Shown here: piece after piece, positions 1-569 of the stretch
Numbering within the stretch: the stretch's first letter is position 1
Layout of the letters: every line of letters begins with the position of its first letter
From: Escherichia coli
Lineage (GTDB): Bacteria; Pseudomonadota; Gammaproteobacteria; Enterobacterales; Enterobacteriaceae
DNA: 569 nucleotides
Assembly: GCF_003334335.1 (NCBI RefSeq)
Contig: NZ_QOWQ01000170.1
Reading direction: 5' to 3' (one strand)
The notes under the pieces: generated by a model
Databases searched by the model: none
What the model saw: the letters and a program-made list of their open reading frames with translations, nothing else
Told to the model about the DNA's origin: nothing
Made by a program: the position numbers and the translations under genes

Positions 1-569
1 CCGGACCACCCGGACCACAGGGTCCGGCAGGGCAAACCGGCCCGAAAGGGGATAAAGGTGAACCCGGCGCAACAGGTCCGGCAGGTCCCGCAGGCCCTCG
101 GGGAGAAACCGGCCCCGCAGGTCCTGCGGGTCCCGCAGGCAGTGTCGCCAGTGTTCCGGATGCCAGCACATCGCAGAAGGGTGTGGTGCTGTTGAGCAGT
201 GCCACAGACAGCGCTGAGGAAAACAAGGCCGCCACGCCGAAAGCGGTGAAGGCAGCAATGGATGCGGCAAATGCAGCGAAACAGCGTGCAGAAGAGGTGG
301 CGAAGGCTGGGGCATCAGGCAGCAGTATGCCGGGACCCAAAGGCGATCAGGGGCCACCGGGGCCGAAAGGTGAAAAAGGTGAACCGGGAGCAACAGGCCC
401 CGCAGGAAAGGATGGTGCCGCCGGAGCGGAAGGTAAGGCAGGTCCGGCAGGGCCACGAGGTGAAAGGGGACCAGCGGGGGCGCAGGGTGTTCCGGGGCCA
501 CAGGGCCCTGCCGGAGGGCGAGGGCCGATGGGACCGCCCGGGTTGGATGGTAAAACCGGACCACAGGGA
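1..569 (+). CDS. Partial (5' and 3' truncated) phage/prophage tail fibre protein with collagen-like Gly-X-Y repeats; codon phase begins at nt 3
   Basis: Frame 3 (nt 3-569) is open for all 189 codons, while + frames 1 and 2 contain stops (TGA 193-195, TGA 247-249; TAA 53-55). Translation: [189 protein letters not shown]. Strict Gly every third residue over 15 and 26 consecutive triplets cannot arise by chance. Product call rests on recalled similarity of the central motif to phage tail fibre repeats; not verified by search. Confidence 0.85.
3..140 (+). repeat. Collagen-like triple-helix tract 1: 15 uninterrupted Gly-X-Y triplets plus closing Gly (coding repeat inside the CDS)
   Basis: Codons at 3-140 read [46 protein letters not shown]. 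Pro is enriched at X, and charged residues (K, D, E, R) occur in X/Y positions. Confidence 0.9.
141..332 (+). other. Non-collagenous interruption (64 aa) containing a phage tail-fibre-repeat-like motif (core about nt 177-263)
   Basis: Translation [64 protein letters not shown]. The core [11 protein letters not shown]...[12 protein letters not shown] matches my recollection of the consensus of the short repeat in lambdoid side tail fibre proteins (Pfam 'Phage tail fibre repeat'). Family assignment is from memory. Confidence 0.65.
333..569 (+). repeat. Collagen-like triple-helix tract 2: 26 uninterrupted Gly-X-Y triplets plus Gly, continuing past the window end
   Basis: Codons at 333-569 read [79 protein letters not shown], with no break in Gly periodicity. 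Confidence 0.9.

What the first reader, a model, noticed from the sequence alone, without database searches (positions are those of the whole stretch)
1..569. Both gene termini and the specificity-determining context are outside the window
There is no start or stop codon in the coding frame, so the N-terminal tail-attachment domain, the C-terminal receptor-binding tip and any downstream fibre-assembly chaperone or invertible segment are not visible. Whether the fibre belongs to an intact prophage, a tailocin or a remnant, and whether anything here is novel, can only be decided from flanking sequence.
Basis: inference. Interest (0 to 1): 0.3.

Follow-up and report, generated by a model that had tools for sequence, protein, structure and literature searches.

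The report
Mid-shaft of a prophage side tail fibre
The window is the middle of an ordinary, already described type of collagen-like side tail fibre gene from a lambda-like E. coli prophage, and the missing ends and neighbours were recovered and hold nothing unexpected.

Summary
Frame +3 is open across all 569 nt and encodes collagen (Gly-X-Y) – Phage_fiber_2 repeat – collagen.

The window is 100% identical to two public assemblies: an IMG/VR contig and NCBI GCA_000407805.1 scaffold KE136653.1. There it forms codons 209-397 of an intact 500-aa gene. The start codon lies 622 nt upstream and the stop ends 312 nt downstream.

The full protein reads:
- lambda Stf-type N-terminal collar domain (PF08400)
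- collagen
- Phage_fiber_2 (Pf2)
- collagen
- a 92-aa C-terminal tip with no Pfam match

This is the 'EPclC' architecture of Ghosh et al. 2012, whose archetype is ORF-401 of prophage P-EibA.

The gene sits directly after gpL-K-I-J of a lambdoid tail module. It is followed by a 191-aa DUF4376 protein (a known class of tail-fibre chaperone), an Eib-like YadA-family gene, DinI and the host gene btsS. No invertase or invertible segment is present, and the locus is not an adhesin or exosporium operon.

Whether this strain's prophage is intact cannot be decided, because both assemblies end about 10 kb upstream. Relatives range from complete virion modules to decayed copies. Interest is low.

The parts
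1..569 (+). Internal part of the stf-like side tail fibre CDS, frame +3 with the first full codon at nt 3. It covers residues 209-397 of a 500-aa protein.
   Evidence: No stop codon in frame +3. 100% identical to L002 3318..2750(-) inside ORF 2438..3940. The same protein is encoded on NCBI KE136653.1.
3..146 (+). C-terminal 16 Gly-X-Y triplets of the first collagen-like triple-helix segment (Col1). In the full protein Col1 is residues 136-256, with a GDPGGPPG break upstream of the window.
   Evidence: Pfam Collagen hit at window aa 1-47, 1.4e-8. Gly-X-Y run at aa 1-48.
165..290 (+). Phage_fiber_2 (Pf2) repeat, a non-collagenous knob between the two collagen segments.
   Evidence: PF03406 at window aa 55-96, 3e-15, covering the full model. 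Aligns to residues 109-151 of phage Mu fibre protein S (PDB 5YVQ/8JU3, about 1.5e-7).
291..332 (+). Ala/Glu-rich linker ([18 protein letters not shown]), probably a short helical stretch leading into Col2. This allele differs from the commoner TKAEEAATRAAV form.
   Evidence: Read directly from the sequence. Comparison with relatives is in alignment A2. The helical nature is inferred.
333..569 (+). First 27 of the 30 Gly-X-Y triplets of the second collagen-like segment (Col2, residues 319-408 of the protein).
   Evidence: Pfam Collagen hits at window aa 109-153 and 138-189. Gly-X-Y run at aa 111-189.
1..18 (+). Part of a perfect 9-bp x3 tandem repeat, (CCGGACCAC)3 = Gly-Pro-Pro repeats. The window starts inside it.
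   Evidence: Tandem Repeats Finder: L002 3301-3327, 3.0 copies, 100% matches. Alignment. Relatives have one unit fewer.
558..569 (+). Part of a perfect 9-bp x2.9 tandem repeat encoding Gly-Pro-Gln repeats. The window ends inside it.
   Evidence: Tandem Repeats Finder: L002 2736-2761, 100% matches. Alignment.
58..195 (+). 45-aa out-of-frame ORF (frame +1), judged spurious.
   Evidence: It is the only closed ORF listed. It overlaps the Pfam-supported frame +3, and its product is an Arg/Pro/Gln-rich frame-shifted reading of the collagen codons.

Best explanation
The window encodes the central shaft of a trimeric side tail fibre (a lambda Stf homologue) of a lambdoid siphovirus prophage of E. coli. 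The fibre has the collagen-containing 'EPclC' type of architecture.

How it most likely works:
1. The N-terminal domain, outside the window, joins eleven others in a collar at the tail-tube/tip junction, giving four trimeric fibres as in Ur-lambda.
2. A short Ala-rich helical stretch leads into collagen triple helix 1. This is followed by the Pf2 knob and linker, then collagen triple helix 2. The window covers the end of helix 1, Pf2 and most of helix 2.
3. The fibre ends in a 92-aa tip that presumably binds a cell-surface receptor.
4. The 191-aa DUF4376 protein encoded immediately downstream most likely acts as the tip's folding chaperone or cap.

The window segment is therefore a spacer and hinge. 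It sets the fibre's reach and keeps the three chains in register; it does not determine specificity. Its length changes in whole triplets between alleles through recombination or slippage in the Gly-X-Y-coding repeats.

Shown here: sequence identity, domain content, gene order and allele variation. Inferred: trimer and triple-helix formation, collar attachment, receptor binding and the chaperone role.
For: - Identity and position in the gene.
- Domain content of the full protein: PF08400 at 1-134 (3.6e-42), Collagen, PF03406 at 263-303, Collagen, and no hit on the last 92 aa.
- PHROG 366 'tail fiber protein', 7.8e-130.
- Solved relatives: Ur-lambda Stf N-domain 9E7M at 2e-28. PMC12617516 shows it as a 12-copy collar carrying four trimeric fibres. 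The Pf2 motif matches Mu fibre S.
- Gene order: porin-gpL-[ClpP-like/arc/sar/ant]-gpK-gpI-gpJ-hok/sok-stf-DUF4376-eib-DinI-btsS. The lambda_TipJ model scores 2272 bits against a cut-off of 1950.
- The arrangement J-lom-ORF401-ORF191A-eibA is the same in P-EibA. ORF-401 is nearly identical over residues 1-270 and 64% identical overall.
- The architecture, including the G-X-P-G-G-P-X-G break, matches EPclC of Ghosh et al. 2012. That paper showed trimers and collagen circular-dichroism spectra for EPclA; EPclB aggregated and its trimeric state was only presumed.
- An EPclB homologue was localised to tail ends by immuno-electron microscopy (PMC5155283).
- DUF4376 proteins are experimentally supported fibre chaperones in Alteromonas phages V22 and A5.
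- The tip and the first ~75 aa of the DUF4376 protein co-vary across 5 loci.
- Complete relatives carry full lambdoid virion modules.
- Collagen lengths differ between alleles by whole triplets, and some alleles lack the window region altogether.
Against: - There is no experimental evidence for this allele. The receptor is unknown.
- The tip could not be modelled (AF2 mean pLDDT 44). It has no detectable relatives outside a group of E. coli sequences at least 91% identical to it.
- Whether the prophage in this strain still makes virions is unknown. Both assemblies end about 10 kb upstream of the gene.
- The nearest complete-genome prophage at the same chromosomal site (strain EC2) has a frameshifted capsid gene, a frameshifted DUF4376 gene and an IS1 insertion.
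- The co-variation rests on five loci and three tip types only.
Confidence: 0.9

Rival explanations
1. The gene is a fibre gene of a defective (cryptic) prophage. It is intact as an ORF but is no longer assembled into infectious particles. It persists because of the linked cargo genes (eib, porin, hok/sok) or as a recombination reservoir for other lambdoid phages. This changes the element's status, not what the protein is.
For: The closest complete-genome prophage at the same btsS-side site (strain EC2) has a frameshifted major capsid gene, a frameshifted DUF4376 gene, an IS1 insertion and other pseudogenes. The strain's genome carries at least two prophages sharing the porin region. hok/sok can stabilise a locus after it stops functioning as a phage.
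Against: Every visible gene from the porin to DinI is an intact ORF of the expected length: L 232, K 245, I 193, J 1155, Stf 500, DUF4376 191 and Eib 424 aa. A relative (DETEC-S792) has an apparently complete terminase-to-J module. Isolated phages PhiR5_2 and the PhiR12 series, recorded with E. coli K-12 or C as host, match the window at about 91-98% identity. The one checked in full, PhiR5_2, also carries the same tip type (92% identical) and a downstream DUF4376-type gene.
Confidence: 0.3
2. The fibre belongs to an F-type (flexible, lambda-tail-like) tailocin rather than a phage.
For: Only tail-tip genes, with no head genes, are visible on the about 21 kb recovered for this strain. F-type tailocins are built from lambda-like tail genes (general knowledge).
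Against: Near-identical modules in complete genomes are contiguous with terminase, portal, protease and capsid genes and with lambdoid early and lysis regions. The cluster carries typical temperate-phage inserts such as ant/sar/arc. It also has the P-EibA layout described for inducible prophages.
Confidence: 0.03
3. The protein is a bacterial cell-surface collagen-like adhesin or exosporium-type protein (Scl/Lcl/BclA-like) unrelated to a phage tail.
For: The collagen repeats give sub-threshold NCBIfam hits to SclB, SclA and Lcl, and a PDB hit to BclA.
Against: All these scores are far below the curated cut-offs (127 against 325, 106 against 400, 104 against 500), and the matches cover only Gly-X-Y stretches. 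The N-terminus is a lambda Stf collar domain, not a signal peptide. The gene lies between gpJ and a fibre-chaperone gene.
Confidence: 0.01

Closest known systems
ORF-401-like protein of prophage P-EibA (E. coli ECOR-9; AF151091), the EPclC archetype of Ghosh et al. 2012 (PMC3368898)
   Same: Same architecture: PfN - Col (with GxPGGPxG break) - Pf2 - Col - non-PfC tip. Residues 1-270 are nearly identical. Same neighbourhood: J ... fibre - 191-aa DUF4376 protein - eib.
   Different: The sequences diverge from the middle of Pf2 onwards. Col2 has 30 triplets here against 25. The tips are only about 20% identical. The first ~75 aa of the downstream protein are about 30% identical. hok/sok stands in place of lom. 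The Eib passenger region differs.
Bacteriophage Ur-lambda side tail fibre Stf (PDB 9E7M; PMC12617516)
   Same: Homologous N-terminal collar domain (2e-28). Same gene position, after J. A Pf2-type repeat also occurs in lambda Stf according to Ghosh et al..
   Different: The lambda shaft is a long coiled coil or beta structure with a gp37-like distal part and no collagen. Lambda has a different tip (it binds OmpC) and a Tfa (Caudo_TAP) chaperone rather than DUF4376.
EPclA/EPclB collagen-like fibres of O157:H7 prophages (for example ECs2717; Z1483/ECs1228 of Stx2 phages)
   Same: Collagen triple-helix shaft on a PF08400 N-domain. EPclB also has the Col-Pf2-Col arrangement. EPclA was shown experimentally to be trimeric with a collagen-type melting transition, and an EPclB homologue was localised to tail ends.
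   Different: Those proteins carry a long PCoil segment of about 110 aa and the PfC (PF06820) C-terminal trimerisation domain. Here there is only a short Ala-rich stretch and no PF06820 hit.
DUF4376 tail-fibre chaperones of Alteromonas phages V22 (gp27) and A5 (gp9)
   Same: The downstream 191-aa protein has the same layout: a variable N-part with a C-terminal DUF4376 domain (residues 72-180, 6e-18). It lies immediately after the fibre gene.
   Different: There is no detectable similarity outside the DUF4376 domain, and the hosts and fibre types are different. A chaperone role here is inferred, not tested.

Membership tests
Lambda Stf-type side tail fibre | N-terminal 'prophage tail fibre N-terminal' collar domain (PF08400) | tested here: met
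   PF08400 at residues 1-134, 3.6e-42. Residues 1-91 match Ur-lambda Stf 9E7M at 2e-28. This domain lies outside the window, in the identical flank.
Lambda Stf-type side tail fibre | Gene located just downstream of the central fibre gene J in a lambdoid tail module | tested here: met
   gpL (TIGR01600, 365 bits), gpK, gpI and gpJ (lambda_TipJ, 2272 bits against a cut-off of 1950) lie upstream. stf starts 481 nt after J.
Lambda Stf-type side tail fibre | Assembled as trimeric fibres on the virion | not testable with these tools
   Known only for homologues: Ur-lambda by cryo-EM and EPclA by ultracentrifugation and light scattering.
EPclC collagen-like prophage fibre (Ghosh et al. 2012) | PfN - Col - Pf2 - Col order with a C-terminus unrelated to PfC (PF06820) and a short or missing PCoil | tested here: met
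   Pfam scan of the 500-aa protein: no PF06820 hit, and collagen starts at residue 136, directly after PF08400. Definition taken.
EPclC collagen-like prophage fibre (Ghosh et al. 2012) | Single G-X-P-G-G-P-X-G interruption in the first collagen segment | tested here: met
   A GDPGGPPG break splits the Gly-X-Y runs 136-192 and 194-256. The feature is described.
EPclC collagen-like prophage fibre (Ghosh et al. 2012) | Formation of a genuine collagen triple helix | not testable with these tools
   Only the sequence periodicity can be shown: 70 Gly-X-Y triplets, with Pro the commonest residue at X (35 of 70).
DUF4376-type fibre chaperone partner | A small protein with a C-terminal DUF4376 domain encoded immediately after the fibre gene | tested here: met
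   PF14301 at residues 72-180, 6.1e-18. The gene starts 20 nt after the stf stop codon.
DUF4376-type fibre chaperone partner | Required for folding or activity of the fibre tip | not testable with these tools
   Indirect support only: the tip and the N-terminal ~75 aa co-vary (99/99, 92/95, about 20/30 and 18/16 % identity), while the C-terminal part stays at 78-99%.
Invertible fibre-switch (Gin/Cin/Pin type) | Site-specific invertase gene plus inverted crossover sites flanking alternative fibre C-termini | tested here: not met
   No recombinase Pfam hit among the called genes within 10 kb either side. Only short, imperfect inverted repeats were found (21 nt or less, 75-93% complementary).
Gram-positive/Legionella surface collagen-like adhesins (SclA/SclB/Lcl, BclA) | Score above the curated family cut-off, secretion signal, and a non-phage operon | tested here: not met
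   127 against 325, 106 against 400 and 104 against 500 bits. The N-terminus is a Stf collar domain and the locus is a phage tail module.
Tailocin (F-type) | Tail module without head, packaging or replication genes | tested here: inconclusive
   This strain's contigs end upstream of the porin gene. Related loci in complete genomes include head and early genes.

The most novel reading that the evidence does not exclude
The 92-aa tip has no Pfam family, no solved relative and no detectable homologue outside a narrow E. coli group. It may be a new receptor-binding fold. Together with the first ~75 residues of the downstream DUF4376 protein it may form a contiguous, exchangeable specificity cassette. 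The crossover point would lie inside the chaperone gene, so the tip-specific part is the chaperone's N-terminal part and the conserved part is its C-terminal DUF4376 domain. From memory, not checked here, this is the reverse of classical Tfa chaperones, whose C-terminal part is the tip-specific one. The N-part might stay on the fibre as a cap or adhesin.
Probability: 0.2. Interest if true: 0.4.

Novelty: new member of a known kind. Interest (0 to 1): 0.12.

Why it matters
It matters little beyond correct annotation. The window is a spacer segment of a known fibre family. Its repeats explain why such genes are so often fragmented or labelled 'partial collagen-like protein' in draft assemblies. 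The modest open questions lie outside the window. The receptor and fold of the 92-aa tip are unknown. How DUF4376 proteins pair with fibre tips is also unknown; this bears on host-range prediction and fibre engineering for lambdoid and Stx-type phages that spread eib, porin and toxin genes.

Tried and rejected
A pairwise alignment was used instead.
- The protein search with the translated window was swamped by generic collagen hits and partial E. coli fragments. It gave no full-length match.
- Searches with the tip alone found only E. coli sequences at least 90% identical. Among 1.84 billion representatives they also found a few weak, multi-stretch matches to long Ser/Thr/Gly-rich repetitive proteins. 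I judged these to be compositional, not homologous.
- AlphaFold2 on the tip with a 7-sequence alignment gave a mean pLDDT of 44, so no fold search was run.
- Extending L002 past the porin gene failed, because no further sequence is stored.
- The NCBI scaffold also ends there. Integrase, attL and head genes of this strain were therefore not seen.
- A literature search for the PhiR5/PhiR12 phages returned nothing usable.
- I considered and rejected the antisense frame -3 (open throughout) and the 45-aa frame +1 ORF as genes. Both follow from the G+C-rich triplet periodicity.

Full report
**Observation**

The 569-nt window has 67% G+C. Only frame +3 and the antisense frame -3 lack stop codons.

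Frame +3 reads as 16 Gly-X-Y triplets, then a 62-residue non-collagen stretch, then 27 Gly-X-Y triplets. Pfam finds Collagen at aa 1-47, 109-153 and 138-189, and a full-length Phage_fiber_2 repeat at aa 55-96 (3e-15). PHROGs assigns this frame to tail-fibre families.

The statement that no stop codon occurs is correct. The statement that no start codon occurs is not literally correct: there are nine in-frame ATG/GTG/TTG codons, all internal.

An open 569-nt frame is not significant by itself at this base composition. In mononucleotide shuffles, 22% had at least one open frame. The coding call rests on the domain hits and on the match described next.

**Recovering the flanks**

A 60-mer from the non-repetitive part hit one IMG/VR contig, IMGVR_UViG_2563366825_000027 (15,180 nt), of which 13,727 nt are held as locus L002. 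The whole window aligns to it without a mismatch, at L002 3318..2750 on the minus strand.

There the reading frame is a 500-aa ORF (2438..3940). The window is residues 209-397. The ATG is 622 nt upstream of the window, and the stop codon ends 312 nt downstream.

The exact 500-aa protein is also encoded on NCBI assembly GCA_000407805.1, scaffold KE136653.1 (341 kb). This gave 10 kb on each side, held as L017.

No complete E. coli genome among 5,426 holds an identical copy of the window. The best matches are either 83% identical over 88% of it, or mosaics of pieces at 92-97%. The shaft allele is therefore a recombinant of segments seen elsewhere.

**The whole protein**

Pfam on the 500 aa gives:
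- phage_tail_N (PF08400) at 1-134, 3.6e-42
- Collagen
- Phage_fiber_2 at 263-303
- Collagen
- nothing on the last 92 residues

The Gly-X-Y runs are 136-192 and 194-256, separated by a GDPGGPPG break, and 319-408.

Against solved structures, residues 1-91 match the N-terminal domain of the Ur-lambda side fibre (9E7M, 2e-28). In the virion that domain forms a 12-copy collar at the gpV/gpM junction, from which four trimeric fibres emerge (PMC12617516). The Pf2 stretch aligns with residues 109-151 of the phage Mu fibre protein S (5YVQ/8JU3).

This is the EPclC architecture defined by Ghosh et al. 2012 (PMC3368898): PfN-Col-Pf2-Col with a C-terminus unrelated to PfC, PCoil often missing, and the conserved G-X-P-G-G-P-X-G interruption in the first collagen segment. 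Its listed archetype is ORF-401 of prophage P-EibA.

ORF-401 is almost identical to the present protein up to about residue 270 and then diverges (64% identity overall).

For the related EPclA, trimer formation and a collagen-type circular-dichroism spectrum with a melting transition were shown experimentally. EPclB aggregated, and its trimeric state was only presumed. An EPclB homologue was localised to tail ends by immuno-electron microscopy (PMC5155283).

**Context**

On the gene's strand the order is:
- OmpC-like porin
- gpL
- a ClpP-like gene and an Arc-like gene on the opposite strand, a second small Arc/YlcI-like gene, the sar antisense RNA and ant
- gpK, gpI, gpJ
- a hok/sok locus
- the fibre gene
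- a 191-aa DUF4376 protein
- a 424-aa YadA-anchor protein
- two small ORFs
- DinI (opposite strand)
- the host genes btsS/btsR (yehU/yehT) and onward

The YadA-anchor protein's C-terminal two-fifths are nearly identical to EibA. P-EibA has the same J-(lom)-fibre-ORF191A-eibA layout.

The locus is thus the right arm of a lambdoid prophage of the Eib-carrying kind. It is not an adhesin or exosporium operon.

No recombinase gene is called within 10 kb on either side. Only short imperfect inverted repeats occur around the fibre's 3' end. An invertible host-range segment is therefore not present.

**Intact prophage, tailocin or remnant**

Both assemblies of this strain end just beyond the porin gene, which is repeated in the genome. 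Head, early and integrase genes could not be seen.

All visible genes are intact.

In complete genomes the same kind of module is contiguous with full lambdoid head and tail genes (DETEC-S792). This argues against a tailocin.

At the same btsS-side site in strain EC2, however, the prophage has a frameshifted capsid gene, a frameshifted DUF4376 gene and an IS1 insertion. The status evidently varies from strain to strain and remains open here.

Isolated phages (PhiR5_2 and the PhiR12 series, recorded with K-12 or E. coli C as host) match the window at about 91-98% identity. For PhiR5_2 I checked the full fibre: it carries this tip type on a different N-terminus.

**Specificity end**

The 92-aa tip occurs with the downstream gene as a unit. 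At least 134 complete genomes match this tip-plus-DUF4376 region, 28 of them over at least 80% of its length, with up to 99% identity.

Three unrelated tip types were seen on otherwise near-identical fibres.

Across five loci, the tip and the first ~75 residues of the DUF4376 protein co-vary, while the C-terminal DUF4376 domain stays at 78-99% identity. In PhiR5_2 the downstream protein is chimeric. Its N-part matches this locus (95%) and its C-part matches P-EibA (97%). That places a crossover inside the gene.

DUF4376 proteins are documented fibre chaperones or 'caps' in Alteromonas phages (PMC7289586 and PMC10579305).

The tip itself has no Pfam family and no remote homologue. AlphaFold2 gave an unusable model (pLDDT 44). 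Its fold and receptor remain unknown.

**Role of the window segment**

It is the shaft: the end of collagen helix 1, the Pf2 knob with an Ala-rich linker, and most of collagen helix 2.

Alleles differ by whole triplets:
- Col1: 19+21 triplets here, against 19+20 in two relatives, 19+5+14 in ORF-401, 29+24 in PhiR5_2 and 22 in the 426-aa allele
- Col2: 30 triplets here, against 33, 30, 25 (twice) and 38

One natural allele of 287 aa joins Col1 directly to the tip and lacks the whole window region.

The window begins and ends inside perfect 9-bp x3 tandem repeats. A 13-nt direct repeat, CCGGACCACAGGG, sits at nt 10-22 and again at nt 556-568. Relatives have one GPP unit fewer at the first repeat.

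These repeats are plausible sites of slippage and unequal recombination. They also explain why most database relatives are 'partial' proteins from short contigs.

**Verdict**

This is an ordinary member of a described family in a described kind of prophage. Nothing in the window itself is novel. The only mildly open matters are the uncharacterised tip and its DUF4376 partner, and both lie outside the window.

Noticed in passing
L002 4083-4369 (-) ; L017 9718-9858: A hok/sok type I toxin-antitoxin locus occupies the gpJ-stf gap where P-EibA and other relatives carry lom. It consists of a 46-aa Hok-family ORF (Pfam HOK_GEF; NCBIfam HokA 1e-9), an overlapping 69-aa mok-like ORF, and an Rfam sok hit (59.6 bits against a gathering score of 59).
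   Followed up: partly
L002 9601-11613: A P22 immI-like insert sits inside the tail gene cluster between gpL and gpK. It holds the anti-repressor Ant, sar antisense RNA (Rfam RF00262, 69 bits), Arc-like repressors and a ClpP-like protease gene.
   Followed up: partly
L002 12564-13727 (-) ; L017 214-1377 ; L011 7582-7649: An OmpC-like porin gene (NCBIfam 'porin OmpC', 497 bits against a cut-off of 484) lies just upstream of gpL; in related complete prophages (L001, L018) it sits between the gpM-position 'phage tail protein' gene and gpL. Both assemblies of this strain break just beyond it, and its 5' end recurs in a second contig of the same genome. From memory, lambda Stf and phage PA-2 use OmpC and PA-2 encodes a replacement porin. 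A link to this fibre's receptor is speculation only.
   Followed up: no
L002 89-1363 (-) ; L017 12578-13852: The downstream 424-aa YadA-anchor protein is nearly identical to EibA over its C-terminal ~150 residues but differs in the N-terminal passenger part. It is an Eib-family variant of a length I do not recall matching any named Eib protein (not checked).
   Followed up: partly
window 1-22 and 556-569: The window starts and ends inside perfect 9-bp x3 tandem repeats, and the same 13-mer CCGGACCACAGGG occurs at nt 10-22 and nt 556-568. This looks like an assembly-graph or repeat-bounded fragment. The repeats are also sites of allele length change.
   Followed up: partly
window 1-567 (-), frame -3: The antisense frame is open across the whole window and matches PHROG 23612 ('unknown function', 1.4e-8). 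That family is probably built from miscalled shadow ORFs on the opposite strand of collagen-like fibre genes. In L002 the antisense ORFs reach 383 aa.
   Followed up: partly
L004 6958-7539 (PhiR5_2) compared with L002 1843-2418 and L003 2661-3236: The DUF4376 protein of phage PhiR5_2 is a chimera. Its N-part is 95% identical to this locus and its C-part is 97% identical to P-EibA. The fibre tip follows the N-part. This suggests that the tip plus the chaperone N-part move as one cassette.
   Followed up: partly
P0132 (287 aa), P0133 (426 aa): Natural alleles with the same N-domain and the same tip either lack the entire window region (Col1 fused to the tip) or have a shortened Col1. The Col-Pf2-Col shaft is therefore dispensable at the ORF level.
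   Followed up: no
L018 (E. coli EC2, NZ_CP058571.1 1743500-1793400): The related prophage at the same btsS-side chromosomal site is visibly decaying. It has a frameshifted major capsid gene, a frameshifted DUF4376 gene, an IS1 insertion and several partial genes.
   Followed up: no
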